Below are positions 9,766-53,870 of a stretch of DNA of 59,639 bases, one piece after another. Each line of letters starts with the position of its first letter. Within the stretch, counting starts at the first letter, position 1. The position numbers and the translations under genes were made by a program. The stretch comes from an uncultured Oscillospiraceae bacterium. Its GTDB lineage: Bacteria > Bacillota > Clostridia > Oscillospirales > Oscillospiraceae. Location of the stretch: assembly GCA_947624585.1 (NCBI GenBank), contig CANQKZ010000001.1, forward strand, positions 1 through 59,639. Direction: 5' to 3'. The notes beneath the pieces are model-generated. The model was not told the DNA's origin. It saw only the letters and a program-made list of their open reading frames with translations, and did no database searches.

Positions 9766-10300
9766 GGGAGGGGCGTCACCGTTTGTCTGCCTGTGCTGGA
9801 CGGAACCACCCCGGCGCTGCGCGCCACCCCGACCTAGGAGGGGCAACGTAGTTGGAGGCGGGTGCGGTTTGTCGGGGCCGGTCTGTCATCCAACCTTCGC
9901 TTCCCCCCTGCCCCCCTCCTACGAGGAGGGGGCTTAAAAGGTTGCGGCTTCGCCGCATTCTTTGATTTGTCCGCTGCGGCGGGGACGACCCTTTCGGCGC
10001 CTGCGGGCGCCACCTCCCCCGTGGGGGAGGTAGGGACGAGGGACGGGGGGCGAAGGCTCGAATACCCCGCCGCTGCGGCGGCACCCCATCTCCGGCCTAA
10101 GAGCCGCCCCTTCGGGGCGGTTGGCCTCCGAAACACGCCTGCGGGCGTAGTCTTTCCCAAAGAGGGGTTAAGGGGAATAAGGTTGCGGCTTCGCCGCGTT
10201 TTGATTATCCGCTGCGGCAACCCTTCCGGCGCTTCGCGCCACCTCCCCCAGGGGGAGGTTTGCGGGACCTGCCACCACATGCTGTGCTTGAATGGATTGT
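9766..10300. repeat. Mosaic GC-rich hairpin array R1 (unit order D-E-B-A-C-I-B-A)
   Basis: Units are shared with the other arrays. Examples are D at 9802-9844 (GGAACCACCCCGGCGCTGCGCGCCACCCCGACCTAGGAGGGGC), the hairpin CCCCCTCCT-ACG-AGGAGGGGG at 9912-9932, and the A unit ending CCTCCCCC-GT-GGGGGAGG at 10013-10030. The ORFs across it are Pro/Arg/Gly-rich shadows. Confidence 0.85.
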
Positions 10301-10461
10301 AGAGGCTTGATTTTGGGTTGCGTGTTGGAAAAAAGTTGGGGTCTGAAACCCTTGGGGGACAAGGATTTTTGGCTTGGTTGATGGGGTGTATGTATGAATG
10401 GTAATCATATCATCCCATCATGGCGCGAGCCAAATAAAAAGTAAAGGGTGAACGAAAGAAA

Positions 10462-10659
10462 TTGATCGCGATCAACAAAGAGGAGAGCCGCCTTATCCGG
10501 GAGAGATTCCCGAGGGTGACCATCGTCAGGACTATGCGGCAGAAGTCCGCGCGGCACCGCTATTATATGGAGGAGTCGCCCAAGGCTGCGAGGCTGATCG
10601 AGAGGCTGCGGGGAGCTGAGAAAAAGGAAAACGCGGTCTATACGCAGGCCCATAGGTGA
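10462..10659 (+). CDS. Small hypothetical protein
   Basis: 65-aa ORF with a TTG start, basic and helix-rich. It sits directly upstream of the phosphoesterase gene. Confidence 0.45.
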   Translation: MIAINKEESRLIRERFPRVTIVRTMRQKSARHRYYMEESPKAARLIERLRGAEKKENAVYTQAHR

Positions 10660-10675
10660 AATGGGGGTGTCATAG

Positions 10676-11866
10676 ATGGACTTATCGCAGAGGCCGAATG
10701 AGAGCAATTTGGACTATCATAAGCGCCTTGTCTATGGCAAGCTCACGGACAAAACGCTGGCGGATGTGGATTATTCGGAGCTGGCCGAGGCGCTGTACGG
10801 ACAAGCCTATGCCTCCGACGTGGCGAGAAGGATGGTGTACGGGAGCAAGCGCACGCTTGACGCCCTTGCCTTGGATGCCGAAACGGATATTGAAAGCGCG
10901 GATATCCTGACGGAGTTGGACACCAAAAAGGTCGAGCTCCAAAAGGAGCGCCAGAAGTTTTTTGACCAGCGTAACGCCTTCAATAAGGCGGTGCGGGAGC
11001 GGGCCAGGCAGGAGGAGCTCAATGAGATTCTGCTGCGGGCCGTGCGGGAGGGGGATTTGCCGGAGCTCAGGTATGAGCCGCGGGAGACGGCGCCTTCGGA
11101 CAACGACCTTCTGGTGAGCCTTAATGACCTGCACTATGGGGCGGTGGTGGAGAACTACTGGAATACATACAGCCCCGAGCGGTGCCGGGAGATGATGTGC
11201 GCGTATCTCGACAGGATCGTCGAGATCGGGCGGCTCCACAAAAGCCAGCGGTGTATTGTCTGGGAGAACGGGGACGCCATCAGCGGGAACATCCACCAGT
11301 CCATCGCCGTGACGAACAAGGAAAACGTCATCGAGCAGATCAAGGGGGTGTCGGAGCTCATCGCGGAATTCTTGGCGGAGCTGAGCCGGCATTTTGAGGC
11401 GGTGGTCTTCGTCAGCGTGGCGGGGAACCACAGCCGTCTCAATCCCAACAAGGAGATGGCGCTGGTGAGCGAGCGGCTGGATGACCTGGTGGAGTGGTAT
11501 CTAAAGGCGAGGCTCCAAGCTTTTGAGAACGTGACTATCGGCGGGGCCAGGAAGATAGACAACACCATGTACCTCATGGACGTGCGGGGGCGTACCTACT
11601 GCGGCGTCCACGGGGACTTTGACGACACGCCGGGGAAGGTGCAGACGCTTCAGACCATGGCCGGCAAGCCGGTGTACGCGGTCCTATCCGGGCACCGGCA
11701 CCACAACGAGCTGGGGGAGGTGCAGGGCGTGAAGACCGTTATGGCCGGGAGCTTCCTGGGCATGGACGACTACTGCGTCCAGAAGAGGATCGTCGGGCGG
11801 GCGGAGCAGATCGTCTGCGTCTGCACGGAGGACGGGATCTTGTGTTCCTATGACATTCCGCTGTGA
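10676..11866 (+). CDS. Calcineurin-like metallophosphoesterase (SbcD/Mre11-type nuclease candidate)
   Basis: Ordered motifs DLHYG, GDAISG, GNHS, HGDF and GHRHH. Confidence 0.8.
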   Translation: MDLSQRPNESNLDYHKRLVYGKLTDKTLADVDYSELAEALYGQAYASDVARRMVYGSKRTLDALALDAETDIESADILTELDTKKVELQKERQKFFDQRNAFNKAVRERARQEELNEILLRAVREGDLPELRYEPRETAPSDNDLLVSLNDLHYGAVVENYWNTYSPERCREMMCAYLDRIVEIGRLHKSQRCIVWENGDAISGNIHQSIAVTNKENVIEQIKGVSELIAEFLAELSRHFEAVVFVSVAGNHSRLNPNKEMALVSERLDDLVEWYLKARLQAFENVTIGGARKIDNTMYLMDVRGRTYCGVHGDFDDTPGKVQTLQTMAGKPVYAVLSGHRHHNELGEVQGVKTVMAGSFLGMDDYCVQKRIVGRAEQIVCVCTEDGILCSYDIPL

Positions 11867-11869
11867 TCG

Positions 11870-12590
11870 GGCTGGCCGAAAGGCCCTGGTCCACCATATC
11901 GCGGGGAAATCCCCCGCCAGTTTCTCCACACCAGACAGGAATCGGGCGCTGTGAAACGCAGCTCGTCTGGCCGCACAGACTATAAATCATATTGCGGAAC
12001 GTGTGCGCAATGAGGCATTCGGGCCCGGCGATCTCTCGGACGCAGATCGGATGTAAGTCCTCAACATTGAACAGAACCCGGCACGCGACGTCCTCGCTGA
12101 AGCCGCTTTGCCTTACCGCCACGCAAGCGTGACGGCTCGGGCGCGGGCTTCGCTCGTCCTCTCCCCACGCAATCTTTGATTGCGCGGGGACCCTAATGAG
12201 ACGACGATGCGGACCACGCCGGGTCAATTAAGACATATTTACCTCACGCCGCCGTGTGGACAGTCCGGTGCCTACCGGGAAAGAGCGGCGGCCTGGGGTG
12301 GATATATTTGAACAATCCCATAGCGGTAAGCCTCCCAAACATCCGGGAAGTGCTGAGCCTATGGGGTTTAGAAGCCCTGGCACGGGCTGTAGTGCCGAAT
12401 GTGTGCGGTGGCGGGATAGACACCGCCACCCGCATACTTTATATGCGGAGTGCTTGAAGCAGAAGCCGGAGGCGCTGACCGGTCAACGGCGCTGAGGGTG
12501 TGGCGGGTCACGCCCGTCTCTCCGCTCCAAAGCGCAAGCGGGCGTTGAAGCGCGAGAAGTTAAGTGCCGTATTCAGGGCGACGGGCTGGC
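11870..12590. other. ORF-free, hairpin-rich ~720-bp region; candidate large structured RNA or cis-acting site; strand unknown
   Basis: No ORF has an RBS or a recognisable protein. Many local and nested stems are present: GGCC-GAAA-GGCC (11873-11884), GCGCAATC-TTTG-ATTGCGC (12167-12185), CCCATAG(12317)...CTATGGG(12365), GGTGGCGG-GATAGACA-CCGCCACC (12407-12430) and GCATA-CTTTA-TATGC (12432-12446). Confidence 0.4.
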
Positions 12591-13065
12591 GGTGGCTGAT
12601 GATAAGACGCAGCGCGGCGCTTGTTATGTGAAAATTGGGGCGGAACCACCCCTGCCGCGCTTTGCGCGGCTGTCCCCTCCGTTGGAGGGGCTAAAGGGGA
12701 GCACACGGGTAGTCTTGCCCCTCCTACGGAGGGGTGGCGCGAAGCGCCGGGGTGGTGCTGCAATCCGTCTACCGGAAGCGTCCGTTACGCTCCACGGGCT
12801 CGAATACCCCGCCGCCGCGGCGGCACCCCTCTTCCCCGAAGAGGGGTTAAGGGGAATAAGGTTGCGCCGCGTTGCGGCGCTCTTTTATTATCCGCTGCGG
12901 TGGCCCCTTCGGCGCTTCGCGCCACCTCCCCCAAGGGGGAGGCAACCCTTTCGGCGCCTTGCGCCACCTCCCCTGGAGGGGAGGCTAAAGACGAAGGCGC
13001 AGCCCTGAAGGGGGCCCTTTCGGCGCTGCGCGCCACCTCCCCCAAGGGGAAGGTAAAAAGGGGCG
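12590..13065. repeat. Mosaic GC-rich hairpin array R2
   Basis: It contains D-type units in both orientations (12640-12695 forward, 12720-12770 inverted), C and B units (12795-12900), and three consecutive A units (12904-13055). Confidence 0.85.
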
Positions 13066-13107
13066 GGGTTGACAGAGATTGAACGAAAGAAAGGGAGAAG
13101 AAAAGGA

Positions 13108-13425
13108 ATGTTGATCAATAAATCGGATTTTGTCCAGCAGCTGGTGGACAAGTATGGGTATACGAAGGGGTCCGCCTCGACGCTGGTGGACGACTTTTTG
13201 GAGCTTTTGACTGAGGATATGGCCGAGGGGATGTCCGTGTCCTTTTATGGATTCGGGCGCTTTGGGGTCATTGAGCATGGGGGTGGGAATTGCAGGAACC
13301 CGAAGACGGGGGAGCCCTGCGATACCGCCTCTTACTATATCACCCGCTTCTATCCCGGGCAGGGCATGAAGCTGGCCGCCAGGAAGTGCGGGGACCTGTG
13401 GAAGTCGCGGAGAAGGGCGGTGTGA
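13108..13425 (+). CDS. HU/IHF-family DNA-binding protein
   Basis: NKSDFVQQLV...FYGFGRFGVIEHGGGNCRNPKTGEP...FYPGQGMK follows the HU consensus (GFGxFxV..R..RxGRNPxTGE..I....F.PGK.LK). RBS AAGGGAGAAGAAAAGG precedes the ATG at 13108. Confidence 0.8.
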   Translation: MLINKSDFVQQLVDKYGYTKGSASTLVDDFLELLTEDMAEGMSVSFYGFGRFGVIEHGGGNCRNPKTGEPCDTASYYITRFYPGQGMKLAARKCGDLWKSRRRAV

Positions 13426-13426
13426 G

Positions 13427-14446: not shown

Positions 14447-15075
14447 GTCAGGGACAGTCGAGGCGGGAGCGGGTCGTCGAGGGGATGGCGATCTGGGGGA
14501 GTTACTACCGGGAGAACATCGACGAGTTCGTGACGGACTACCTGGGGTTCACCTTTTTGAAGTGGTTTCAGCTGGCGCTTCTCGTGATGATGAATTGCTG
14601 CCGGACCTTTGTTTTGATCGCGGCCCGAGGAATCGGAAAGTCCTTCCTGGTGGCGATCTTCGCCTGCGTCCGGTGCATTTTGTACCCGGGGACGCAGGTG
14701 GTCATCACCTCCGGGACCAGGGGGCAGGCCATCAACGTCCTGGAGAAGATCCAGGTACAGCTCATGCGGGATTCCACGAATCTGCGCAACGAGATCGACC
14801 TGGAAAAATCCAAGTTCTCCGGCCAGGACGCCAAGGTGCTTTTCAAAAACGGGAGCTACATCAAGGTGGTCACGGCCAACGACTACGCCCGCAGCAACAG
14901 GGCGAACATTTTGATCGTGGACGAGTTCAGGATGCTCCGCAAGGACACCGTGGATACCGTCCTCAAGAAGTTCCTGACAAGCCGGCGGATGCCGGCGTAC
15001 AGCGAGCTGACGGACGCCGAGCGCAAAGCGGAATACGCCAAGGAGCCCAACGAGTCCTTCTACTTATCATCGGCT
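14443..15075 (+). CDS. terL: Terminase large subunit, exon 1 (ATPase domain)
   Basis: Walker A is ARGIGKSF, Walker B is ILIVDEF, and motif III is YLSSA at the exon end. TAA follows immediately as the first intron codon. Confidence 0.85.
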
Positions 15076-18733: not shown

Positions 18734-19165
18734 GATCACCCCTGCGGCTTCGGCGCTGTCCGCGACCTGGGAGTGGCTTTTTGTTGTGGGCGGGTGCGGG
18801 GTGTCGGGACCGATCTGTTATCCTACCTTCGCTACCCCCCTGCCCCCTCCTACGAGGAGGGGGCTTTAAAAGGTTGCGCCGCTTTGCGGCGCTTTTTGAT
18901 TATCCGCTGCGGCGGGGAGGACCCTTTCGGCGCTGCGCGCCACCTCCCCCACGGGGGAGGTTAACGGGGGCTCGAATACCCCGCCGCTGCGGCGGCGCCC
19001 CTCTTTCCCAAAGAGGGGTCAAGGGGAATAAGGTTGCGGCGCTACGCGCCGCCTTTTATTATCCGCTGCGGCGGGGAACCCTTTCGGCGCTTCGCGCCAC
19101 CTCCCCTGAAGGGGAGGCTGACGGGCGGGTTTGGAACCCGCCCCTACATTGTAACCTCCGGAGGG
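18734..19165. repeat. Mosaic GC-rich hairpin array R3 (unit order D-E-B-A-C-B-A-F)
   Basis: Its order is almost the same as R1, which has an extra I unit and lacks the terminal F: D 18733-18775, E 18790-18865, B 18868-18915, A 18921-18960, C 18963-19020, B 19021-19075, A 19078-19118, F (GGGCGGGTTTGGAACCCGCCC) 19122-19142. Confidence 0.85.
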
Positions 19166-19178
19166 GCGGTTAATTTGT

Positions 19179-22297: not shown

Positions 22298-22620
22298 AAC
22301 TGGCGAAAAATGGCTGCGCCATTTTCCTGCTAAGGGGAACGTGCGGAAACCCTCCGTGAAAAGCCTGCGGGCTTTTCCCAGAGGGTTTCCTGCTGTCACG
22401 CTGCGCGCGCCGCAAGCGGCACACTTGCGTGACAAGAGGTATTTTTTCCGACATACATACCGCCGGAAAAAATGCTCGATAGGGGGGTCTCCCCTTGAAG
22501 GGATTGGGGGCGAACGTGGTCTATCGGGGCTGCTCAAAGCCCTTTGGCCTCCCACCTCATCCGGCGCCTGCGGGCGCAGACTCAAGGGGGAGGCAAATTA
22601 AATCTTTGCGAGCCGGTCCC
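22298..22620. repeat. Post-gene structured module (copy 1 of 3) plus hairpin units (array R4)
   Basis: Hairpin AAAATGGC-TGC-GCCATTTT at 22307-22325. Nested long hairpin GGAAACCCTC..[AAAAGCC-TGCG-GGCTTTT]..GAGGGTTTCC at 22345-22390. Hairpin TTTTTTCCG..CGGAAAAAA at 22442-22472. Related modules occur at 26048-26235 and 49540-49815. Confidence 0.8.
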
Positions 22621-25331: not shown

Positions 25332-26051
25332 ATGCCCATAAGGCACCTGCTCTATCAAAAGCGCATACAGGTAACCCCGTATATCGCTGTCGAGGTGCCT
25401 ACGGTGGGGGAGATCCTGGAGCGCGAGGACGACTATTACAGCATGGTCTCCATGCTGACGGCGATGCCCATCGACATGATGGTACAGCTGGACGACATCG
25501 GGGTGGACTTCGCGTCCATTAACGAGTATGAGCTGTTCCTGATGCTCTTTAATACGCTGAAGGAGATGAACACGGAACTTATCTTCGGCGGGCTAGACCT
25601 CAAGGGCTTCGAGCCGGCTATCAACCCGGACAATAACCAGATCATGCTGGCAGACAAAAGGAGCGGGGCCAGGATAGACCGGGCGGTACACGGGAAGATC
25701 GCGGGGACGCTGAGGATGCTCCACGGCCTGGAGAAGGACAACCGGCGGCCAGGGAACGACTCGGCGAAGAGCTATATGATCGAGCGGGCCAGGGCGAAGA
25801 TGAAGCGCGCGCGGGGGCGGACGAGCGGCTCACAGCTGGAGGAGCTGATCGTCGCGCTGGTGAATACGGCGGAATTTCCTTACGATTACGAGGAGACACG
25901 AGAACTCTCGATCTATCAGTTCAACCAGAGCCTGCGGCAAATCATCCATAAGATCGACTACGACCACCGGATGCAGGGAGTCTTCGCCGGGACCATCGAC
26001 GCCAAGGGGCTGAGCCAGGAGGATCTGACGTGGGTGAGGAGACTGGCTTGA
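25332..26051 (+). CDS. Hypothetical structural protein
   Basis: 239 aa. Its stop codon lies inside the hairpin TTGAAAGGGC-TGGC-GCCCTTTCAA. Confidence 0.55.
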   Translation: MPIRHLLYQKRIQVTPYIAVEVPTVGEILEREDDYYSMVSMLTAMPIDMMVQLDDIGVDFASINEYELFLMLFNTLKEMNTELIFGGLDLKGFEPAINPDNNQIMLADKRSGARIDRAVHGKIAGTLRMLHGLEKDNRRPGNDSAKSYMIERARAKMKRARGRTSGSQLEELIVALVNTAEFPYDYEETRELSIYQFNQSLRQIIHKIDYDHRMQGVFAGTIDAKGLSQEDLTWVRRLA

Positions 26052-26620
26052 AAGGGCTGGCGCCCTTTCAATGCCAAAGGGGATGCGTGCGAAAACATCG
26101 GGCTGAATTCCGCAGAATTCAGCCCGATGTTTTCTGCCGTTTTGCTCCGCGCACTCGCTTCGCTCGCACACTCCGCAAAACAAAAGGTATTTTTTCCGAC
26201 GTACATGCCGCCGGAAAAAATGCTCGATGAGGGGAGCGTTGCGGCGTGGACGACCCTTCCGGCGCTTCGCGCCACCTCCCCCAAGGGGGAGGCTAGGATG
26301 AGGGACGAAGGCTCGAATACCCCGCCGCCGCGGCGGCACCCCTTTTTCCGAAAAAGGGGCAGGGGGAATAAGGATGCAGCTTTTCGCGCCGCGTTTTGAT
26401 TATCCGCACGGCGGGGACGGGCGGGTTTGGAACCCGCCCCTACAGTTTTAAATTGCGTTCAATCAACGCCGTAGGGGCCGCCACTCCTGGCGGCCCGTGG
26501 CTCGATGACCTCCAAGGTCGCGGTTTATGCGCCGGGTTTGGCGCCCCGTCGGCCCCGAAAAAGGCAATCAAAATGTGTTTCACCCGTCCAGTCGCCGGAC
26601 GGGTTTTGTGTGTTTGAGAA
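26048..26620. repeat. Post-gene structured module (copy 2 of 3) plus mosaic hairpin array R5
   Basis: 10-bp hairpin at 26048-26071. Perfect 20-bp stem GAAAACATCGGGCTGAATTC-CGCA-GAATTCAGCCCGATGTTTTC at 26090-26133. Hairpin TTTTTTCCG..CGGAAAAAA at 26190-26220. These are followed by A, C, B, F and G units at 26255-26500. Confidence 0.85.
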
Positions 26621-27648: not shown

Positions 27649-28040
27649 GGGGGTGGGTAGAACCACCCCTGCGCCTTCGGCGCTGTCCCCGACCTAGGAG
27701 GGGCTGGGGTGACGGGGCGGGGATGATTTGTCGGGACCGCTCAGTCATCCAACCCTCGCTTCCCCCCCCCTACCCCCTCCTACGAGGAGGGGGCGACCCT
27801 TTCGGCGCTTCGCGCCACCTCCCCTGAAGGGGAGGCAAAAAGGTTTGCGCCTGCGGCGCATTCTTGGATTTGCCCGCGCGGCGGGGACGGGGGCTCGAAT
27901 CCCCCCCCCTACCCCCCCTTTGCCCCAAAGGGGGTCAAAAAGGTTGCGGCGCTTTGCGCCGCGTTTTGATTATCCGCCGCGGCGGGGCCCTTCAGTCACG
28001 GCCTTTGGCCGTGCCAGCTCCCCCAAGGGGGAGCTATTTT
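27649..28040. repeat. Mosaic GC-rich hairpin array R6 (unit order D-E-A-B-C-B-A')
   Basis: It uses the same unit set as R1 and R3. The last A unit has both stems changed in a compensatory way (CACGGCC-TTT-GGCCGTG and GCTCCCCC-AA-GGGGGAGC). Confidence 0.85.
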
Positions 28041-29789: not shown

Positions 29790-30110
29790 AACCCTTCCGC
29801 CTCGCTTCGCTCGACACCTCCTCCACGGGGGAGGTTAACGGGGCTCGAATACCCCGGCCCTGCGGGGCCACCCCTTTTTCCGAAAAAGGGGTCAAGGGGA
29901 ATAAGGTTGCGCCGCGTTGCGGCGCTTTTTTGATTATCCGCTGCGGCAACCCTTCCGGCACTTCGCGCCACCTCCCCCAAGGGGGGAGGTTAAAAACGGG
30001 CGGGTTTGGAACCCGTCCCTACAAAAAAGGCTGCGTCATTTCGCGGCGGTTGCGCTGCGATGCGCGCCTGCGGGCGTGTACCGGAGGGGAATTGGTAACG
30101 GAGGAAGGTG
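29790..30110. repeat. Mosaic GC-rich hairpin array R7 (A-C-B-A-F-I units)
   Basis: C unit GGGCTCGAATACCCCGGCCCTGCGGGGCCACCCCTTTTTCCGAAAAAGGGG at 29842-29892, followed by B, A and F units. Confidence 0.8.
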
Positions 30111-37329: not shown

Positions 37330-37790
37330 GGGCATTTCGGCGCTTCGCGCTGCCTCTCCCCACGGGGAGTTTAGGGGCGGGGCGGTGGAGCGGGCAGTCA
37401 CTCTTGGCGGCCCGCGTTGCGGGTTTCGGATTGCCTCCGATAAACGCCGTAGGGGCCGCCGCCCACGGCGGCCCGTATCTCCGATAACCGCCATTTCCCG
37501 TTTTATCGGGACCTTTCCCGTCGCGCCATGTATCACGGGCGGGCACATAGGCCCGCCCCTACAGGGGGATGGGAAAGGTTATCCCATTCAACCGACATCG
37601 GAGGATTTCGAAACGCGGGCCGCCGTGGGCGGCGGCCCCTACGGCGTTGTTCGAGCGGGTCAATGGCCGATGAGCGGGCCGCCCGGCTGCGCCCGCAGGC
37701 GCGTTTCACAGCGCAACCGCCGCAACGCGGTGGCTCTTAGCGCGGAGATGCGGCCCCTGCTACGGTTTTTGAGGGAAGAAAGCAAGAAAA
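37330..37790. repeat. Hairpin array R8 containing a 33-bp perfect inverted repeat
   Basis: AACGCCGTAGGGGCCGCCGCCCACGGCGGCCCG at 37443-37475 has its exact reverse complement at 37616-37648. A-, F- and I-type units flank it. Confidence 0.85.
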
Positions 37791-43573: not shown

Positions 43574-44225
43574 GAGGGAGTTTCTGAGTGGTTCGATAGT
43601 CGTCCCCACCCTGCCCATCGCTTCGCTCGGGATCGTCGTCGCTGATGCCGCTTTGCTTCGCCCTCCCGTTGGTCGGGCTCAGGTGCTGGCATCGCTCATC
43701 TCCGGCCTAAGAGCCGCCGCTACGCGGCGGTTGGCCTCGTGATGCGCGCCTGCGGGCGCAGTCCTCTCCCCAGCGGGCAACAGCCCGCCGGGGACCCCGG
43801 AGGGAGGGGCTTTAAGGTGCGCGGTTTGTCGGGAATGCTCTGTCATCCCACGCTCGCTTCCCCCCTGCCCCCCTCCTGCGGGGAGGGCTCTAAGACGGGG
43901 CGGGTGCGTTTTATCGGAACCATTCCGTCAACGCATCCTCTTTTGCCCCTCCTAGGTCGGGGTGGCGCGAAGCGCCGGGGTGGTTCCGTCTATCGGACCG
44001 CGCAAATAATCGCACTCACCCCCCGTCTTAGAGCCCTCCCCGCAGGGCGGGGAGGGGGAGGGGTGAGGTGGGAGCCGAAGGGCTTTGAGTGGCTGCGGTG
44101 AACGCACGCACCTCATCCGGCGCCTGCGGGCGCCACCTCATCTCCGCGCTAAGCGCCGCCCTTCGGGCGGTTGCGCTGTGATGCGCGCCTGCGGGCGCAG
44201 CCCTGAAGGGGAGGCTAAGGGGCAT
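43574..44225. repeat. Hairpin array R9 containing a 22-bp perfect inverted repeat around an inverted D unit
   Basis: CGGGGAGGGCTCTAAGACGGGG at 43879-43900 has its reverse complement at 44021-44042. An inverted D unit lies at 43945-43987. E- and I-type units are present, and a segment is shared with 49640-49757. Confidence 0.85.
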
Positions 44226-44828: not shown

Positions 44829-44895
44829 AAGAACATAGGTTTGTGAAACCACCCCTGCCGCTTCGCGGCTGCCCCGACCTAGGAGGGGCTTTATA
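44829..44895. repeat. Single D-type hairpin unit (R10)
   Basis: AAACCACCCCTGCCGCTTCGCGGCTGCCCCGACCTAGGAGGGGC, with inner stem GCCGC-TTC-GCGGC. Confidence 0.8.
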
Positions 44896-48069: not shown

Positions 48070-48260
48070 GACTGTGACGGGCGGGTTTTGAACCCGCCCC
48101 TACAGGGGACGGCGGAGAACGGGGCTTCGATCCCTCAGTCGCTTCGCGACAGCTCCCTTTGCGAAAGGGAGCCTACACACCCCGGAAGCTTTCTAAAGAC
48201 GGGGCCCTACCGCCTCACTGCGCTCGGCGCCTCCCCAGGGGGTTAAGATGAAAGCATCGT
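48070..48260. repeat. Hairpin array R11 (F unit and degenerate A-type units)
   Basis: GGGCGGGTTTTGAACCCGCCCCTACA at 48080-48105, and GGGAGC-TGTCGCGAAGCGACTGA-like palindromes shared with 53610-53660. Confidence 0.7.
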
Positions 48261-48299: not shown

Positions 48300-49541
48300 A
48301 TGGCTGTGAACAAGGTAGCATTCAGGCTCGGTCTGCGTGATGCGCTGAAAAATGCGCCCAATGTGGAGGGGACGTTCAGCGTTACCACGGACGAGCACGC
48401 GCTGTATCTGGACGTGGCGGGCGGTCAGCGCATCAGGCTCGGCGATTTTATCAAGGTGGCGAAGCTCACCGACCTTGAGGCGATCACGGAGCCCGCGGAG
48501 ACCGCCCTTTACTACGTGGAGGAGATCAACTGCCTCGCCTGCCACGACGGTGAGGACTGGGTCCAGATCAACCGGGACACCGGCGCCACGAAGGTGGAGG
48601 TCACCGGCGGCGGCAACGGCATCGCCAGCGCCGTCTATGACAAGGACTCCCGCACCATCAAGATCACCATCGACAAGACCTTCCTCACCGCCGAGGATGT
48701 GGGCACCAAGATCTCCGATGTGGTGGGCACTGTCCCCGACGAGAAGACCGTTGTCGAGTACATCGACGAGAAGACCAAGGATACCGCTTCCAAGGAGGAG
48801 ATCGCCGGCATCACCACCCGCCTCGGCGCTCTGGAGGGCGCCGAGGGTAAGGAGAAGTGGGACAAGGCTGCCGAGGATGTGGACACCGTTATGGGCGATT
48901 ACCTGAAGACGGCGGACAAGACTGTCCTGGAGGGGAAGATCAACGCCAAGCAGGACAAGCTTGTCTTCGAGGGCACCTACAATGCCGACAACAACAAGGC
49001 CGCTACCATGGCGGACGTGACCGCCGCCGTGTCGGGGCTGTCCGGCGCCATGCACTGGATCGGCACGGTGGAGACGGAGCCCAACGCCGAATCCGGCGCC
49101 AGACGCCAGAAGGGGGACGTTGTCTCCTACAATGGCGTGGAGTACGCCTGGGACGGCAGCGCGTGGCAGAAGCTGGGCGACGAGTCCATGTACTCCGAGA
49201 AGGTCACGGGTTGGGACGAAGCGGCCGCGCAGAAGCACACCCACGACAACGCCACCGAGCTTGACAAGATCAAGACCGGCGACAAGGAGAAGTGGGACGC
49301 CGCCGCCGGTAAGGCCGATACCAACTCCGCCGCCATTACCGCCATCAAGGATGACAAGACGCTCACCAGCTTCAGCGCGGTCAAGACGGAGCTGGACAAG
49401 AAGGCCAACAGCACGGATGTGACGGCGCTTGTGGGCGATGCGCAGGGTGTCGATGCCACCACCATCAAGCAGGCCGCCAAGGAGGCCGAGGAGTACGCAG
49501 ACACGAAAATCAATGAAGCGCTGACTTGGGGGAGCTTCTAA
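48300..49541 (+). CDS. Tail fibre-like structural protein
   Basis: 413 aa, with strong RBS AGGAGGGAAG. Repetitive Thr/Lys/Asp-rich segments. The stop codon lies inside a 14-bp-stem hairpin. Confidence 0.65.
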   Translation: MAVNKVAFRLGLRDALKNAPNVEGTFSVTTDEHALYLDVAGGQRIRLGDFIKVAKLTDLEAITEPAETALYYVEEINCLACHDGEDWVQINRDTGATKVEVTGGGNGIASAVYDKDSRTIKITIDKTFLTAEDVGTKISDVVGTVPDEKTVVEYIDEKTKDTASKEEIAGITTRLGALEGAEGKEKWDKAAEDVDTVMGDYLKTADKTVLEGKINAKQDKLVFEGTYNADNNKAATMADVTAAVSGLSGAMHWIGTVETEPNAESGARRQKGDVVSYNGVEYAWDGSAWQKLGDESMYSEKVTGWDEAAAQKHTHDNATELDKIKTGDKEKWDAAAGKADTNSAAITAIKDDKTLTSFSAVKTELDKKANSTDVTALVGDAQGVDATTIKQAAKEAEEYADTKINEALTWGSF

Positions 49542-49860
49542 TTAGAGAGGGGCTGCGCCCCTCTCTAATTAAGAGGAAACGTGCGGGAACCCCTGTGAAA
49601 AGCCTGCGGGCTTTTCCCAGGGGCTCCCTGCTGTTTTGCTGCGCGCACGGCCTCGTCGTCGCTGATGCCGCTTTGCCTCGGGCTCCCTTCGGTCGCCCTC
49701 GGGCGCTGGCATCGCTCTTCCTCTCCCCAGCGGGCAACAGCCCGCCGGGGACCCCAGGCCGCACACTCCGCAAAACAAAAGGTATTTTTTCCGACGTACA
49801 TGCCGCCGGGAAAAATATTTGAATTGTGGTCTTAACATTGAGAACAACAGCACAGGGCAA
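49540..49860. repeat. Post-gene structured module (copy 3 of 3) plus array R12
   Basis: Hairpin AATTAGAGAGGGGC-TGC-GCCCCTCTCTAATT at 49540-49570. The nested long hairpin at 49577-49630 is homologous to 22345-22390. CACTCCGCAAAACAAAAGGTATTTTTTCCGACGTACATGCCGCCGG is nearly identical to 26170-26215. Confidence 0.8.
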
Positions 49861-50202: not shown

Positions 50203-50409
50203 ATGGCGGAGACGAGGTATTACCACCTTCATCTGACGGACAGCGACGCCGAGAAGTTTTTGGCCTGGCGAGAGGCGATGAACGGGACGGAGGCGTCCAA
50301 TATGGTCAAAATCGACGCGGCGCTTTATGAGAAGGAGCGTGTCGTCATATCCGCTGAGCAGCCGGAGGGGCTGACGGAAAACGACACGTGGCTTGAGGAG
50401 GTGGGATGA
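50203..50409 (+). CDS. Small hypothetical protein
   Basis: 68 aa, ending ..NDTWLEEVG, the same C-terminal motif as the preceding ORF. Confidence 0.45.
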   Translation: MAETRYYHLHLTDSDAEKFLAWREAMNGTEASNMVKIDAALYEKERVVISAEQPEGLTENDTWLEEVG

Positions 50410-50410
50410 T

Positions 50411-51832
50411 ATGGCAGAGAAAGTGAAGAAGGTACGGGAGAAGAAGCTCATCAACGGAGAGTGGGTAACGATCCACCGGGAGACGGGCGCAAGCTCCGTG
50501 AAGTTCGATGACGGGAGCACGTTCCAGGAGAAGCTGGACAGCGGGGAGCTCAAGGGGCCCAAGGGCGATCAGGGCGCGGTGGGCGCGCAGGGAACGGCGG
50601 GCGCGCCCGGTAAGGACGGCGCCGCTGGCGCCAAGGGCGACACAGGCGATACGTGGGTGCCCAGCGTGGACGCCTCCACGGGGGCGCTGTCGTGGGCAAA
50701 GAACAGCGGTGTGATGCCGCAGACAGTGAACATCAAAGGACCGCAGGGGGCGACGGGTCCTGCCGGCCCTACCGGCCCTGCCGGTGCGAAAGGGACGGAC
50801 GGGGTTTCCCCTACGGTGAAGGTGTCCAAGTCCGGCACCGTTACCACCGTCACTTTCACCGACGCCGCCGGAGATAAGGTTGCCACCATCAACGACGGCA
50901 AGAACGGCGCAAATGGGACAAACGGAACTAACGGCAAGGACGGCGCGGCGGGGGCGCGGGGCAGCCAGTGGTTTTCCGGCACGGGAGTGACAGGAAACAG
51001 CGGCACCGCCGCCGTGTTCGCCAATTCCGGCGTCAGCTCCGCTCTTGTGGGAGATTGGTATCTCAACACCAACACAGGGTACGTCTACACCTGTACGCTT
51101 GAGGGCGTGGCCTCCGTGGCGAAATGGGTATACAAGGGAAGTATCAAAGGCGTGACGGGTGCTGCCGGCCCAGCCGGGCCCGCTGGCGCCGCGGGCGCGA
51201 AGGGCGACACCGGGGCGGCGGGGCCCAACACTGTGAGCACTTCCACCGGCACCAACATCACGGGGCTTTTGAAGGGCAACGGGAGCAAGGTGGCGCAGGC
51301 AGTTGCGGACACGGATTACCTGACACCTGATACTGCCTCCGGCACATATATGCCCATAAAGGGCGGGAAGTTCACGGGCAACGTCAGCGGGCAATATTTT
51401 ACCGGTACGTGGCTGCAAACCACGGCGGCGGGTAATCTCGCTTCGGCGGCCTCCAAAATAGCCGTGCTTGACGACAAAGGGTGGGTGTATTACCGCACCC
51501 CGGCGCAGATACTCGGCGACATCGGGGCTGTGCCAACGACCCGCAAGGTCAACGGCAAGGCGCTGTCGACGGATATCTCACTTTCTGCGGCGGACGTAAG
51601 CGCAAGGCCATTGACCTGGACGCCCACAGCCGCTGACGTGAAAGCGCTTCCGCTGGCGGGCGGGACGATGACGGGCAATATTGCCATGGGCAGCCACAAG
51701 GTGACGGGGCTGGCGACACCGACGGCGAGCACAGACGCGGCAACGAAAGGGTATGTGGACGGCAAGATCCAATACGGCACCTCCGTCCCCGCGACGCTGG
51801 CGGACGGCGTCGTGTACCTGGTCTACGAATGA
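50411..51832 (+). CDS. Collagen-like repeat tail fibre protein
   Basis: Two Gly-X-Y tracts (GPKGDQGAVGAQGTAGAPGKDGAAGAKGDTGDT, and a second GPAGPAGAAGAKGDTGAAGP). ATG at 50411. Confidence 0.8.
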   Translation: MAEKVKKVREKKLINGEWVTIHRETGASSVKFDDGSTFQEKLDSGELKGPKGDQGAVGAQGTAGAPGKDGAAGAKGDTGDTWVPSVDASTGALSWAKNSGVMPQTVNIKGPQGATGPAGPTGPAGAKGTDGVSPTVKVSKSGTVTTVTFTDAAGDKVATINDGKNGANGTNGTNGKDGAAGARGSQWFSGTGVTGNSGTAAVFANSGVSSALVGDWYLNTNTGYVYTCTLEGVASVAKWVYKGSIKGVTGAAGPAGPAGAAGAKGDTGAAGPNTVSTSTGTNITGLLKGNGSKVAQAVADTDYLTPDTASGTYMPIKGGKFTGNVSGQYFTGTWLQTTAAGNLASAASKIAVLDDKGWVYYRTPAQILGDIGAVPTTRKVNGKALSTDISLSAADVSARPLTWTPTAADVKALPLAGGTMTGNIAMGSHKVTGLATPTASTDAATKGYVDGKIQYGTSVPATLADGVVYLVYE

Positions 51833-51841
51833 GGTGAGGGC

Positions 51842-52546
51842 ATGAGTATTGAAGTCGCGGGCAAGCAGATCAAGGAGCTCCGCATCGGTGTGAACGGCCA
51901 ACCCCGGACGGTGACGGAGGGGTGGGTCGGCGTGAACGGGGCGCCCAGACGGTTCTACTCCGCCTCCGTTCCGCTGTCCTCGTTTGAGATCGGGAGCCTG
52001 GTGTACATCAAGGAGGACGGTGTGCCGGCGCCGTACATCGTTTCAGGGCATGAGTATGATATAAGAGCACTCTCTAGCGAGTCAGTGGTAAGATCTGTGC
52101 TTGTACGGCAGGAAATAACGGGATATTACAAACCCTTACAAGTTTCGTCAGCGTCACAGTCCTATGAGGAAAGTCTTGACCCGGCGGTCATTGAGGCGGC
52201 AAAAGTTCCCATTCTGATAATAGTTGGGCAACAGCCATATGCGGTGTCCTTTGCCTTGCTTATGGTTCAGCTTGGTCTGAGCTTGTCAGGATACGACACC
52301 TCAAAACTGCAGGAGCTTCCCAACGCAAGTACGCTAAAGATGTGTGATCAATGGTTGGGTGATATGAGGCGCGCCCGAAGTGTGGGCAACTCTACTAGCT
52401 ACCGGGCATACACAAACCAATTTGGGGTACCCTCAGAAGCCGTAGTTAGCAATGCGCTGAATTCGGTCTCCCACGGCTTCCGACCTGTTCTGTACCTGCC
52501 GGGAGAGACGATGTTTAACAAGGGCAGCGGGGAGTTTGTGGGGTAA
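51842..52546 (+). CDS. Fibre-tip / receptor-binding candidate, paralogue 1
   Basis: 234 aa. The N-terminal ~75 aa and C-terminal ~70 aa are highly similar to 52822-53499, and the middle is divergent. Confidence 0.65.
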   Translation: MSIEVAGKQIKELRIGVNGQPRTVTEGWVGVNGAPRRFYSASVPLSSFEIGSLVYIKEDGVPAPYIVSGHEYDIRALSSESVVRSVLVRQEITGYYKPLQVSSASQSYEESLDPAVIEAAKVPILIIVGQQPYAVSFALLMVQLGLSLSGYDTSKLQELPNASTLKMCDQWLGDMRRARSVGNSTSYRAYTNQFGVPSEAVVSNALNSVSHGFRPVLYLPGETMFNKGSGEFVG

Positions 52547-52821
52547 GAGGAAAGTTGTGTGGTTATGGAGCGGACAAGCATTTCGGCGGCGGGATGATCG
52601 TTTGACCGACGTGGGCAAAATGTTCGTTCGGCGCTTTCTATATAAAAGCAATCATACAGTGGGAGGTCAAATATGGAAAATAGAACTAACATAAAATTCC
52701 AGCGGGGGGGGGTAAGTAATCCTTTAGTTACCCATTCTGCCGACGGCGGAGATGAGCCCGACCGATACCCCCAGACGCCGGAGGGCGGCGCGGCCTGCCC
52801 GGTCAACGGGTGAGGTGGGGC

Positions 52822-53499
52822 ATGAGTATACAAATCGGGGACAGGCAGGTCAAAGAGCTCTACATCGGCGTGAACGGGCAGCCCAGGAAGGTGACGGAGG
52901 GGTATGTGGGGGTGAATGGCGTGCCACGTAGGTTCTACTCCGCCGCAATCCCGCTTTCTTCGTTCGAGGTGGGGAGTTTGGTATACATCAAGGAGAACGG
53001 GGTGTTGGCACCGTATATTGTATCCGGGCATGAGTATGATGAAAGCTTTACGGAAATATCCGAGAAGTTCTCCGTATTGGTGCGGCAGGAGCCGGCCGAG
53101 TATGTGAAGGGCTGGGTGTTAGACGCAACATTGACCAGGTTTTGTGCCTCTCTCGACCCTGTGGTACAGACGCTACTTGAATCGAATGCTGGTTTGTGTA
53201 ACCTCATGTTCCTTAGTATGCTGGGGCTGAGCCTGCCAAATTACTTTCCCGGAAAACTGCAGGAGCTTCCCAACGCAAGTACGCTAAAGATGTGTGATCA
53301 ATGGTTGGGTGATACAAGGCGCGCTGCAGACGGGAGTAGAATTGTGACTTATCGCGCATACACAAGTGTGTTCGGGAGTCTCTCTGAAGCCGCAAGTGAC
53401 GACAAAGTATTGAGTAGTCCCACCCACGGGTTCCGTCCCTCTTTGTCCCTGCCTGGAGAGACGAAGTTTGATGCGAAGACGGGGGAGCTTGTGGGGTAA
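52822..53499 (+). CDS. Fibre-tip / receptor-binding candidate, paralogue 2
   Basis: 225 aa, with the same RBS context (GAGGTGGGGCATG versus GAGGTGAGGGCATG). It shares the block CAGGAGCTTCCCAACGCAAGTACGCTAAAGATGTGTGATCAATGGTTGGGTGATA with paralogue 1. Confidence 0.65.
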   Translation: MSIQIGDRQVKELYIGVNGQPRKVTEGYVGVNGVPRRFYSAAIPLSSFEVGSLVYIKENGVLAPYIVSGHEYDESFTEISEKFSVLVRQEPAEYVKGWVLDATLTRFCASLDPVVQTLLESNAGLCNLMFLSMLGLSLPNYFPGKLQELPNASTLKMCDQWLGDTRRAADGSRIVTYRAYTSVFGSLSEAASDDKVLSSPTHGFRPSLSLPGETKFDAKTGELVG

Positions 53500-53870
53500 A
53501 GGAAGGTCGTAAGTTTAAAGAGGTCACGGCGAAGGCGCCCCATATAGGGCCCCTCCCCATAGAAGGGGGCAGGGGGGTGGCGAGGGCAGGGAGAGTGAGC
53601 GGTTGACGAGAGCCTCGATCCCTCAGTCGCTTCGCGACGGCTCCCTTTTCGTAAAGGGAGCCGTCGCAACCCGGAAGGGCTCAGAAGACGGGGAAGCGGG
53701 CCGCCAGGAGTGGCGGCCCCTACAACAGCCCTTCGGTAGACGCCGTAGGGGCGGTCTCTCTTGGCTGCCCGCGGGGGGGGCGGAACCACCCCGGCGCTTC
53801 GCACCACCCCGACCTGGGAGGGGCTGACCCTTCTGGCGCCTATAGGAAGCGGTTGACATCCTTCCGGCGG
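53500..53870. repeat. Hairpin array R13 (G, D and A-like units)
   Basis: GGGCCGCCAGGAGTGGCGGCCCCTACA (G unit) near 53698-53725, and D unit GGAACCACCCCGGCGCTTCGCACCACCCCGACCTGGGAGGGGC at 53783-53825. Confidence 0.75.

What the first reader, a model, noticed from the sequence alone, without database searches (positions are those of the whole stretch)
9766..53870. Thirteen intergenic gaps are filled by mosaic arrays of short GC-rich hairpin units with compensatory stem changes
Arrays occupy about 5 kb in total: 9766-10300, 12590-13065, 18734-19165, 22298-22620, 26048-26620, 27649-28040, 29790-30110, 37330-37790, 43574-44225, 44829-44895, 48070-48260, 49540-49860 and 53500-53870. They are built from a small vocabulary of units.
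- A: CCCTTTCGGCGCTTCGCGCCACCTCCCCCAAGGGGGAGG
- B: AAGGGGAATAAGGTTGCGGC-TTC-GCCGCGTTTTGATTATCCGCTGCGGC
- C: GGGCTCGAATACCCCGCCGCTGCGGCGGCACCCCTCTTTCCCAAAGAGGGG
- D: GGAACCACCCCGGCGCTTCGCGCCACCCCGACCTAGGAGGGGC
- E: about 75 nt, ending CCCCCTCCT-ACG-AGGAGGGGG
- F: GGGCGGGTTTGGAACCCGCCC
- G: GGGGCCGCCGCCCACGGCGGCCC

Three loci repeat closely related long orders: D-E-B-A-C-B-A-F at 18733-19142, the same at 9802-10260 with an extra I unit and no F, and a permuted D-E-A-B-C-B-A' at 27658-28035.

Between copies the stems change in a compensatory way while the loops drift. Examples are GCGGC/GCCGC versus GCGCCGC/GCGGCGC versus GCGGCGC/GCGCCGC, CCCCTCTT/AAGAGGGG versus CCCCTTTTT/AAAAAGGGG versus CCCCCTTTG/CAAAGGGGG, and GGCGC/GCGCC versus CACGGCC/GGCCGTG. 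This points to selection on folding.

D units occur in both orientations, which suggests modular mobility like REP/BIME elements. Such density inside one phage late operon is unusual. Possible roles, all speculative, are RNA stabilisers or processing sites, insulators or terminators for the phage-encoded RNAP, or hairpin DNA signals.
Basis: seen in the sequence. Interest (0 to 1): 0.85.

Follow-up and report, generated by a model that had tools for sequence, protein, structure and literature searches.

The report
Host hairpin repeats colonising a phage
The gaps between the late genes of this SPbeta-like gut phage are packed with short GC-rich hairpin repeats that also fill gaps on the chromosome of its likely bacterial host, so they are fast-turning-over REP/BIME-like repeats, not phage-specific RNA signals; one unit type belongs to a cross-phylum family with the sequence symmetry of a triple helix.

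Summary
About 5.1 kb in 13 intergenic gaps consists of some 55 copies of about 13 unit types. All copies are intergenic and 52 of 55 lie on the coding strand.

The units are not phage-specific. Chromosomal contigs of rabbit-gut Oscillospiraceae MAGs carry arrays of the same units at 80-100% identity, next to ackA and other housekeeping genes. The isolate Vescimonas fastidiosa shares unit A and the GTAG-tagged REP units F and G.

The arrays are unstable. A 94-96% identical phage has a 30-nt spacer where the window has a 444-nt array. It carries different or inverted units at three other junctions. Units are also nested precisely inside other units.

No Rfam family and no sequenced phage matches the units. 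I read the arrays as host-shared, mobile or recombinogenic REP/BIME-like elements. They are probably tolerated because a YonO-type phage RNA polymerase ignores hairpins. Any role as terminators or RNA stabilisers would be secondary.

Units A, S and D also belong to a cross-phylum class: mirror pyrimidine tract, variable GC hairpin, pyrimidine arm, loop, purine arm. The mirror tract covaries with the arm (0 of 20000 permutations). That pattern is expected for an intrastrand triplex, as in E. coli boxC/TMECO.

The parts
9766..10300 (+). Array 1: D 9802-9844, E 9861-9933, B, A 9996-10030, C 10055-10167 interrupted by nested unit I at 10088-10151, B 10170-10218, A 10221-10260.
   Evidence: nested I insertion shown in alignment A2
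12086..12230 (+). The same junction carries it inverted in the related phage contig L171.
12590..13065 (+). Array 2: D-like units (one on the minus strand at 12717-12756), C 12796-12846, B 12849-12900, then three A units (12908, 12946, 13015). It is followed directly by an HU-like gene at 13069-13425.
18735..19178 (+). Array 3: D-E-B-A-C-B-A-F. It is absent from the 94-96% identical phage contig L167, which has a 30-nt terminator-like spacer at this position.
22298..22620 (+). Array 4, after the major capsid gene: terminator-like T unit 22334-22396, AT-rich P unit 22432-22480, and an A-like unit with an internal insert near 22545-22590.
   Evidence: An independent contig, L168, is 99.96% identical over this region.
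26048..26620 (+). Array 5: T-like hairpin, P 26165-26228, A 26254, C 26310, B 26363, F (REP with CTAC tail) 26417-26444, GTAG REP at 26471. The related phage contig L169 carries a D-like unit here instead.
27649..28040 (+). Array 6: D-E-A-B-C-B-A' (permuted order). The related phage contig L170 has a reversed J unit at this junction.
29790..30110 (+). Array 7, before the tape-measure gene: A-like, C 29841, B 29894, A 29950, F 29996-30023.
37330..37790 (+). Array 8, after the tape-measure gene: an A-like unit; an inverted pair of GTAG REPs (G units at 37448-37474 on + and 37617-37643 on -) flanking an F-like REP at 37537-37565. This is a REPIN/BIME-like doublet.
43574..44225 (+). Array 9: J 43635-43697, I 43697-43763 inserted between J and K, K 43766-43798, E 43821-43887, D on the minus strand 43945-43987, and an A unit split by an I-like insert at about 44120-44195.
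   Evidence: 89% identity over 310 nt to host contig L069 in reverse orientation
44829..44895 (+). Array 10: a single D-like unit.
   Evidence: Identical in contigs L172-L174.
48070..48260 (+). Array 11: F REP 48077-48104 and S unit 48124-48173. S has the same Y'-hairpin-Y-loop-R architecture as unit A.
49540..49860 (+). Array 12: T 49578-49620, J 49655-49717, K 49723-49755, P 49760-49816.
53500..53870 (+). Array 13: S 53615-53662, an inverted pair of GTAG REPs (53714 on -, 53745 on +), D 53782-53824. It ends at a sigma-70-like promoter match at 53853-53881.
4896..7765 (+). YonO-like single-subunit RNA polymerase gene (PF05183 match), split by a group I intron at 6726-7055. It is the presumed transcriber of the array-bearing late region.
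   Evidence: YonO properties are taken from PMC5467207.

Best explanation
The arrays are mosaics of small, non-coding, GC-rich palindromic elements that belong to the intergenic repeat repertoire of the phage's Oscillospiraceae host lineage.

Three kinds of unit are present:
- classical GTAG-tagged REPs (units F and G), some arranged as inverted doublets
- double-hairpin units with a mirror pyrimidine tract (A, S, D)
- longer composite hairpins (B, C, E, I, J, K, T, P)

How they got there (inferred). They entered and keep turning over in the phage genome by insertion of single units, including into the stems of other units. They also move by copy or recombination of multi-unit blocks between phage and host copies, or between phage copies. 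Host enzymes acting in trans are the likely agents, for example a REP-associated Y1 (HUH) transposase for the GTAG units. The window encodes no such enzyme among the 36 ORFs scanned against Pfam.

Why they persist (inferred). They survive only in intergenic spacers. They can accumulate to about 10% of the late region because that region is probably transcribed as one long operon by a YonO-type RNA polymerase. That enzyme lacks the flap domain needed for hairpin-dependent pausing and termination.

Likely consequences (inferred). On the transcript the sense-oriented hairpins would act incidentally, or after co-option, as barriers to 3' exonucleases. The terminator-like B and T units would block host RNA polymerase.

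What is shown: shared identity with the host chromosome, nested insertions, polymorphism between near-identical phages, and the strand bias. What is inferred: the mobilising enzyme, tolerance by the YonO-type polymerase, and any effect on RNA.
For: Host sharing.
- L069 and L110 come from MAG Lapin-021__bin36 and L113 from Lapin-004__bin88. They carry arrays of 1.2 kb and 0.3-0.4 kb made of units A, B, C, D, E, I, J, K, P and T, at 80-100% identity to window copies, with no similarity to the window's coding DNA.
- L069 encodes acetate kinase, a HIGH nucleotidyltransferase, an M20 peptidase and an amidase.
- The Vescimonas fastidiosa chromid has unit A after the EF-G terminator, and GTAGGGGCSG REPs in its hairpin-filled gaps.
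- The window has 9 exact GTAGGGGCSG sites, all inside arrays.

Turnover.
- L167 is 94-96% identical on both sides of array 3 but has a 30-nt spacer there.
- L169, L170 and L171 carry different or inverted units at three other junctions, and their contigs break inside arrays.
- Syntenic relatives with 40-48% GC have gaps of about 40-80 nt where the window has about 390 nt.

Insertion.
- Unit I sits exactly inside unit C, and in L069 that I unit holds a further 103-nt insert.
- I-like inserts also split J/K and an A unit, always after C(C/T)C.

Other points.
- 52 of 55 copies are on the + strand.
- B units are the top terminator-like sites on the sense strand: 30 sites found against 10.8 expected.
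- No Rfam match for the units at E up to 5 and no match in 50,697 phage records.
- YonO transcribes the SPbeta late genes as one operon, pauses little, and lacks the flap domain (PMC5467207).
- REPs generally lie downstream of genes, in co-directional and convergent gaps (PMC3733652). Unit A copies in other phyla do the same: convergent 21, co-directional 34, divergent 2.
Against: - No RAYT or other transposase was found in the window, and the host genome could not be searched for one. Mobilisation in trans is therefore unproven.
- Only F and G carry the GTAG tag.
- Most arrays are unidirectional rather than alternating as in BIMEs.
- The strand bias could reflect a selected RNA function, or simply a few block duplications.
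- Host assignment rests on MAG contigs and on shared repeats, not on a CRISPR or prophage link.
- REPs are reported to be confined to core genome regions in other species (PMC3733652). A phage this rich in them is atypical and could indicate positive selection.
Confidence: 0.7

Rival explanations
1. The arrays are functional parts of the phage transcription programme. Sense-strand hairpins would stabilise segments of the long late transcript against 3' exonucleases or direct its processing. The terminator-like B and T units would insulate late genes from host RNA polymerase read-through while the YonO-type enzyme reads through. On this view the host copies are the source of the parts but the phage retains them by selection.
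For: - Strong strand bias, 52 of 55.
- Arrays begin immediately after stop codons and fill essentially every gap over 60 nt between 9.7 and 53.9 kb, and none outside that stretch.
- Terminator-like sites are enriched about threefold.
- T units follow the capsid and yomV-like genes.
- YonO lacks the flap needed for hairpin-dependent termination (PMC5467207).
- REPs stabilise upstream mRNA in E. coli (cited in PMC3733652).
Against: - A 96% identical phage lacks array 3 entirely and keeps only a small terminator there.
- The content at other junctions differs or is inverted.
- There is no G.U excess in the stems.
- The same units lie in both orientations in the host chromosome.
Confidence: 0.2
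2. Units of the A/S/D class act through a three-stranded structure. This would be either a pyrimidine-motif triple helix in the transcript or the displaced + strand, or a purine-motif intrastrand triplex on the complementary DNA strand. The structure could stall polymerases or nucleases, or mark sites for recombination, and that activity would drive the instability of the arrays.
For: - The mirror tract covaries with the pyrimidine arm across 17 arm types: own-type score 6.06 of 7 against 4.67 for other types, reached by 0 of 20000 permutations. A direct-repeat model gives no signal.
- 357 such modules occur in 1.3 Mb, against 0-3 in shuffles.
- The linker is a perfect hairpin in 258 of 394 modules, against 6.7 after shuffling, with 59 different stems.
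- Variants with A at a T position fit the purine-motif rule T.A-T.
- TMECO/boxC forms a triplex in vitro and marks unstable loci (PMC4666352).
Against: - The window's own A copies match the ideal third strand at only 5-6 of 8-9 positions.
- Runs of C+.G-C triplets are unstable at neutral pH.
- The loci were collected by seeding on one unit type, so the abundance figures are biased.
- No structural experiment was possible.
Confidence: 0.3
3. The repeats are an assembly or binning artefact: chimeric joins of repeat-rich reads, or phage contigs mis-binned into the 'host' MAGs.
For: The related phage's contigs break inside arrays. The host evidence comes from MAGs.
Against: - Independent assemblies from other samples reproduce three arrays at 99.9-100% identity.
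- L069 carries housekeeping genes on both sides of an array.
- The cultured isolate Vescimonas fastidiosa carries unit A and the REPs.
Confidence: 0.03

Closest known systems
REP / BIME / REPIN elements (GTAG-tagged repetitive extragenic palindromes mobilised by RAYT/TnpA_REP)
   Same: - Short GC-rich imperfect palindromes in high copy.
- Strictly extragenic and mostly 3' of genes.
- Clustered into mosaics.
- Stems kept by compensatory change.
- Units F and G have the GTAG tetranucleotide directly 5' of the stem and occur as inverted doublets at 37449/37633 and 53714/53745.
- They are also present in host-family chromosomes.
   Different: - Most units (A-E, I-K) have no GTAG or CGTC tag.
- Arrays are almost entirely unidirectional rather than alternating.
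- Units are more numerous and longer, up to 75 nt.
- They sit in a phage genome, whereas REPs are reported as restricted to core chromosomal regions (PMC3733652).
- No RAYT gene was seen.
- GTAG REPs were not reported from Firmicutes in that 2013 survey.
E. coli boxC / TMECO intrastrand triplex motif repeats (Holder et al. 2015, PMC4666352)
   Same: - Intergenic and repeated.
- Three G/C-rich blocks in which one block mirrors another.
- The complement of unit A has the class II order: pyrimidine, purine, reverse-Hoogsteen purine.
- Associated with locally unstable loci.
   Different: The first 'loop' is itself a 13-22-nt GC hairpin with a variable sequence, outside the 1-6-nt loops searched by ITxF. 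Blocks are 7-8 nt rather than 9 nt. The distribution spans many phyla rather than Proteobacteria alone. Triplex formation is untested.
Pneumococcal BOX elements and Deinococcus small non-coding repeats (modular mosaic intergenic repeats; recalled from my own knowledge, not tested here)
   Same: A small vocabulary of modules combined in variable order and number, forming stable secondary structures in intergenic DNA.
   Different: There is no sequence relationship. Those elements are not known from phage late operons.
GC clusters of yeast mitochondrial DNA and palindromic repeats of Volvox organelle genomes (the Volvox case is in PMC2670323, abstract seen)
   Same: Selfish GC-rich palindromes that inflate the intergenic DNA of a small, compact genome and insert into one another.
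   Different: Those are eukaryotic organelles, with unrelated sequences and an unknown, probably different, mobilisation mechanism.
Intercistronic RNase III hairpins of T7-like phages (recalled from my own knowledge)
   Same: Hairpins between genes of a long transcript made by a processive phage RNA polymerase, which could define stable 3' ends.
   Different: T7 sites are single, conserved, phage-specific and positionally stable. Here the arrays are multi-unit, shared with the host, and vary between near-identical phages.

Membership tests
REP (repetitive extragenic palindrome), GTAG superfamily | 20-40-nt GC-rich imperfect palindrome with a conserved GTAG tetranucleotide at one end | tested here: met
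   This holds for units F and G only. There are 9 exact GTAGGGGCSG sites plus 1 with one mismatch, each followed by a stem-loop, and all lie in arrays. Units A-E and I-K lack the tag.
REP (repetitive extragenic palindrome), GTAG superfamily | High copy number in the host chromosome, in extragenic positions, mostly in co-directional or convergent gaps | tested here: inconclusive
   The units are present in the chromosomal gaps of L069, L110, L113 and Vescimonas L164. Only 8-40 kb per genome could be read, so genome-wide copy number is unknown. Unit A in other phyla: convergent 21, co-directional 34, divergent 2 (using a crude gene caller).
REP (repetitive extragenic palindrome), GTAG superfamily | Association with a RAYT / TnpA_REP (Y1 HUH transposase) gene in the genome | not testable with these tools
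   No Y1_Tnp hit among the 36 distinct window ORFs scanned against Pfam; two further ORFs were scanned only against PHROGs and matched an integrase and a family of unknown function. The host genome is not available beyond short loci.
BIME / REPIN | REPs arranged in pairs of alternating (inverted) orientation separated by short linkers | tested here: not met
   52 of 55 units share one orientation. Only the G/F REPs at 37448-37643 and 53700-53765 form inverted doublets.
MITE | Terminal inverted repeats and target-site duplication flanking each copy | tested here: not met
   The precisely bounded nested insert I (ATCTCCGG...GGGCGTAG) has no target duplication and no terminal inverted repeats at its ends.
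Intrastrand triplex motif repeats (boxC/TMECO type) | Three consecutive blocks: a pyrimidine block, its Watson-Crick purine partner, and a third block that mirrors one of them | tested here: met
   Mirror covariation across 17 arm types, reached by 0 of 20000 permutations. The window's S units match 7 of 9 positions and its A units 5-6 of 8-9.
Intrastrand triplex motif repeats (boxC/TMECO type) | Short loops (1-6 nt in ITxF) between the blocks, and the TMECO consensus CCCTCNCCC-N3-6-GGGNGAGGG-N3-GGGNGAGGG | tested here: not met
   The linker between the third strand and the duplex is a 13-22-nt hairpin. The sequence does not fit the TMECO consensus.
Intrastrand triplex motif repeats (boxC/TMECO type) | Demonstrated triple-helix formation by CD, NMR or footprinting | not testable with these tools
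   No tool here predicts or measures triplexes.
Any Rfam RNA family | Covariance-model match at or near the gathering score | tested here: not met
   Only two group I introns and DUF3800-XI pass the gathering score. Nothing overlaps the units even at E up to 5.
Intrinsic (rho-independent) terminators | GC-rich stem-loop followed by a T run on the transcribed strand | tested here: met
   B units at 18876, 19036, 27945 and 29909 are among the top-listed terminator-like sites on the sense strand (30 sites against 10.8 expected). A T-unit hairpin with a CTGTTTT tail at 49608-49630 is also listed; other T-unit tails were read by eye. This is a consensus match only, and units A, C, D and E lack T runs.

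The most novel reading that the evidence does not exclude
Units A, S and D may be members of a previously undescribed, pan-bacterial class of intergenic elements. The class was seen in Alphaproteobacteria, Chloroflexota, Dormibacterota, Deinococcus, Bacteroidales, Clostridia, Nitrospinota and a CPR genome.

Its conserved feature is not sequence but a three-part symmetry: third-strand pyrimidine tract, variable GC hairpin, pyrimidine arm, loop, purine arm. This would be a hairpin-clamped intrastrand triple helix.

On this reading the phage arrays are a concentrated display of such structures. The triplex, in RNA or in single-stranded DNA, would be what the cell or a mobilising enzyme recognises.
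Probability: 0.3. Interest if true: 0.8.

Novelty: new variant of a known kind. Interest (0 to 1): 0.6.

Why it matters
REP-like elements are usually described as features of the core chromosome. Here a phage carries about 5 kb of its host lineage's repeat repertoire, and near-identical phages differ in it. This gives a natural system for three questions:
- How do such elements move? The nested insertions show precise boundaries and a preferred C(C/T)C target.
- Do phages ferry these elements between hosts?
- Does a hairpin-blind phage RNA polymerase create a safe harbour for them?

There is also a practical consequence. The arrays fragment metagenomic assemblies of this phage group.

The mirror-repeat covariation, if it reflects a real triple helix, would extend the boxC/TMECO idea to a much wider and structurally distinct family. 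It is directly testable with oligonucleotides.

Tried and rejected
- Rfam at gathering and permissive thresholds: no family for the units.
- BLAST of an array against 50,697 phage records: nothing. Against plasmids: only two 42-45-nt unit A hits.
- Metagenome scan with the E-unit core: two hits with no detectable similarity to the window beyond the 20-nt pattern, so the lineage is rare in JGI data.
- IMG/VR scans: unit A core in 33 contigs and the C core in 3. All are scattered copies, with no comparable arrays.
- Unit A as a 5' leader that sequesters a Shine-Dalgarno sequence: only 27 of 127 copies have any start codon at a suitable distance, and few of those are ATG. Rejected.
- A specific neighbouring gene, such as a transposase, for unit A: no family recurs in more than 10 of about 150 loci.
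- RNA-specific folding signal: G.T 2 against A.C 4, so none.
- RNAalifold on a MAFFT alignment of A units failed because the loops were misaligned. I replaced it with structure-aware scripts.
- A direct-repeat (alternative Watson-Crick pairing) explanation for the upstream tract: no own-versus-cross signal.
- Exact look-up of the capsid protein initially found no contig. Cluster look-ups later gave the close relatives.
- Literature searches found no description of these units or of REP arrays in phages.

Full report
**What the window is**

The window is a complete 59,639-nt contig of a phage with about 60% GC. Its long gene cluster is on the + strand.

Its genes identify it as SPbeta-like:
- A YonO/RdRP-type single-subunit RNA polymerase gene (4896-6737, PF05183), split by a group I intron.
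- A YonJ-like gene, an HU-like gene and a terminase interrupted by a second group I intron.
- A portal (phrog_2739), a YonD-like gene, a YonB-type capsid, a 2402-aa tape measure, tail genes and an amidase.

The portal is 38% identical to that of Brevibacillus phage Sundance. It is 66-71% identical to IMG/VR contigs of 40-48% GC.

Yes.
- The repeat finder recovers the unit families.
- The A core occurs 13 times with up to 2 mismatches, against 0.18 expected.
- A BLAST map of 13 unit consensus sequences gives 55 copies. It reproduces the orders D-E-B-A-C-B-A-F, the variant with an extra I unit, and the permuted one.
- The gaps fold at -0.42 to -0.60 kcal per nt in the twelve long arrays, and -0.34 in the 67-nt single-unit gap.
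- They hold 11.5 hairpins of at least 7 bp per kb, against 2.2 per kb in coding DNA.
- Independent assemblies from other samples are 99.9-100% identical across three arrays. This rules out an assembly artefact.

Compensatory stem differences exist:
- C hairpin 1: CGCCGC/GGCGGC versus GGCCC/GGGCC.
- C hairpin 2: CTCTT/AAGAG versus CTTTTT/AAAAAG versus CCTTTG/CAAAGG.
- A hairpin 1: GGCGC versus GTCGC versus CACGGCC.

Within this lineage, however, they rest on few events. In the B stem a single central pair flips (C-G in 5 copies, G-C in 4), and 13 of 500 shuffles reach the observed covariation score. G.T mismatches (2) do not exceed A.C mismatches (4). Nothing therefore says the folding is specifically RNA.

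**Are the units phage-specific?**

No.

A scan of one genome per species with the A core returned more than 120 stretches. BLAST of the window gaps against these loci singled out three contigs from rabbit-gut Oscillospiraceae MAGs.

- L069 carries a 1.2-kb array and a 0.3-kb array built of units A, B, C, D, E, I, J, K, P and T at 80-100% identity. Units occur in both orientations. There is no similarity to the window's coding DNA.
- The genes around those arrays are acetate kinase, a HIGH nucleotidyltransferase, an M20 peptidase and an amidase. This is chromosome, not phage.
- In the cultured Vescimonas fastidiosa, intergenic gaps are likewise filled with GC hairpins. These include unit A just after the EF-G terminator, and repeated GTAGGGGCSG-stem-loop elements, some in inverted pairs.

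The window's F and G units are the same GTAG-plus-palindrome type. There are 9 exact copies, all inside arrays. That is the defining signature of REPs recognised by RAYT transposases (PMC3733652, PMC8266576).

**Are the arrays stable parts of the phage?**

No.

Cluster look-ups found contigs of a phage 92-96% identical to the window.
- L167 aligns at 94% up to window 18669 and at 96% from 19174 onward. It has a 30-nt spacer with a small terminator hairpin where the window has the 444-nt array 3.
- After the yomV-like gene, the relative has a D-like unit instead of the window's T-P-A-C-B-F.
- Before the DUF1064 gene, it has a reversed J unit.
- At 12086-12200, the J/K unit is inverted.
- That phage's contigs end inside arrays.
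- More distant syntenic relatives have gaps of about 40-80 nt at junctions where the window has about 390 nt.

Alignment A2 shows unit I (64 nt) inserted exactly inside hairpin 2 of unit C. In L069 the same I unit holds a further 103-nt insert in its central loop. I-like inserts also split J/K at 43697 and an A unit at about 44120. Each time the insert follows C(C/T)C and there is no target duplication. These are marks of insertional mobility.

**What the arrays most likely are and do**

The best reading is that host-lineage REP/BIME-like elements have colonised the phage's intergenic spacers and turn over quickly there.

Why so many in a phage?
- If the YonO-like enzyme here behaves the same way (an inference), hairpin arrays would not be polar in the late region.
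- The arrays lie only between 9.7 and 53.9 kb. None lies in the flanking regions, which carry integrase-type genes and sigma-70-like promoter matches.
- Sense-strand B units are the strongest terminator-like sites, with 30 sites found against 10.8 expected.

A secondary role in blocking host RNA polymerase or in protecting RNA 3' ends is therefore plausible. The loss and replacement of arrays in near-identical phages makes an essential, position-specific function unlikely.

The strand bias of 52 to 3 is real. It may partly reflect block duplication, selection against antisense hairpins, or strand-specific single-strand insertion.

**An unexpected lead**

Nearly all genome hits to the A core carried the same extended unit, cccctcCGGCGCTTCGCGCCACCTCCCC-loop-GGGGAGG. 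They came from Alphaproteobacteria, Chloroflexota, Dormibacterota, Deinococcus, Bacteroidales, Clostridia, Nitrospinota and a CPR genome.

Position of the unit. It is not tied to a start codon or to any neighbouring gene family. It lies like a REP: convergent 21, co-directional 34, divergent 2.

The mirror symmetry. The upstream tract CCCCTCC is the mirror of the pyrimidine arm CCTCCCC. It is therefore the parallel Hoogsteen partner of the purine arm GGGGAGG.

Tests of that symmetry:
- A structure-only scan found 251 double-hairpin units with 17 different arms. The upstream tract tracks the arm as a mirror repeat. Examples are CTCTCCC with CCCTCTC, CCTCCCT with TCCCTCC, and CCCCCCT with TCCCCCC.
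- The own-type score is 6.06 of 7, against 4.67 for other types. None of 20000 permutations reaches it. A direct-repeat model shows no signal.
- Modules defined without any hairpin-1 requirement number 357 in 1.3 Mb, against 0-3 in shuffles.
- Their linker is a perfect hairpin in 258 of 394 cases, against 6.7 after shuffling, with 59 different stems.

How this compares with known triplex motifs. A mirror repeat combined with an inverted repeat is the requirement for an intrastrand triplex. On the unit strand it would be the class IV pyrimidine motif, which is possible in RNA. On the complement it would be the class II purine motif, the class of E. coli boxC/TMECO. That motif forms a triplex in vitro and marks unstable loci (PMC4666352). 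The ITxF search used in that study allowed loops of only 1-6 nt, so hairpin-linked units would have been missed.

Caveats:
- The loci were seeded on one unit type.
- The window's own A copies are imperfect, matching 5-6 of 8-9 positions. Its S units are better at 7 of 9.
- Runs of C+ are unfavourable at neutral pH.
- No structural test was possible.

**Verdict**

The REP/BIME-like reading and the claim of selection on folding are supported.

The finding is still more than ordinary, for three reasons:
- The density of host repeats in a phage and their documented turnover are unusual.
- The nested insertions offer a handle on the mechanism.
- The mirror-repeat architecture is a testable and possibly new structural class.

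Noticed in passing
window 6726-7055 and 15066-15353; L167 1-100, 197-844 and 4868-5071: Two group I introns (88 bits each) interrupt the YonO-like RNA polymerase gene and the terminase gene. The 94-96% identical phage L167 carries additional intron-like inserts, in the portal (with a GIY-YIG/NUMOD3 endonuclease ORF) and in the capsid gene near window position 22215. Intron content therefore varies between close relatives, as the arrays do.
   Followed up: partly
window 11868-11915: A full-length DUF3800-XI RNA (RF02975, 58.2 bits, E 2.5e-10) lies one base after the stop of the YonJ-like gene and is conserved in relative L171. In SPbeta an unannotated non-coding RNA lies beside the YonO promoter (PMC5467207). 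A link between the two is possible but untested.
   Followed up: no
window 3478-3559 and 53979-54060: An 82-nt direct repeat, 99% identical and ending in an AT-rich TATAAG-type stretch, brackets the whole RNA-polymerase-plus-late region. A sigma-70-like match (TTGACA-17-TATGAT) lies at 53853-53881. These could be duplicated promoter or regulatory regions, or recombination sites.
   Followed up: no
window 22417-22473, 26165-26221, 49760-49816; L069 173-232: The 57-nt AT-rich unit P contains the inverted repeat TTTTTTCCG-N13-CGGAAAAAA. It is 98-100% identical between the phage and host MAG contig L069. In the window it always follows a T unit whose flanks are conserved while its long stem differs completely between copies.
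   Followed up: partly
window 13069-13425: An HU/IHF-family DNA-binding protein gene (PF00216, E 1.5e-17) starts immediately after array 2. E. coli BIMEs are known to bind IHF (from my own knowledge), so a phage HU acting on the arrays is conceivable.
   Followed up: no
loci L008-L160 (genome and viral contigs from many phyla): Unit A's extended sequence cccctcCGGCGCTTCGCGCCACCTCCCC-loop-GGGGAGG recurs nearly unchanged in very distant phyla, including cultured Caulobacter, Asticcacaulis, Stakelama, Deinococcus and Aminobacter. In some genomes it forms tandem arrays with periods of 46-139 nt (L020, L064, L080, L081, L112).
   Followed up: partly
L167, L169, L170, L171 (Logan SRR29273036): At least six of the eight contig ends of the related phage fall inside repeated sequence: a hairpin unit at the 3' end of L169, both ends of L170 and both ends of L171, and group I intron sequence at both ends of L167 and the 5' end of L169. 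These repeats fragment short-read assemblies of this phage group.
   Followed up: yes
window 51842-52546 and 52810-53499: Two adjacent paralogous genes, with DNA repeats of 228 nt at 79% and 105 nt at 86%, follow a collagen-repeat tail fibre gene (50393-51832).
   Followed up: no
window 10057-10070, 27889-27905 and other C units: Unit C begins with GGCTCGAATACCCC. The variant at 27889 reads GGGGGCTCGAATCCCCC, a 5-bp stem with a 7-nt loop resembling a tRNA T-arm. ARAGORN finds no tRNA in the window.
   Followed up: no
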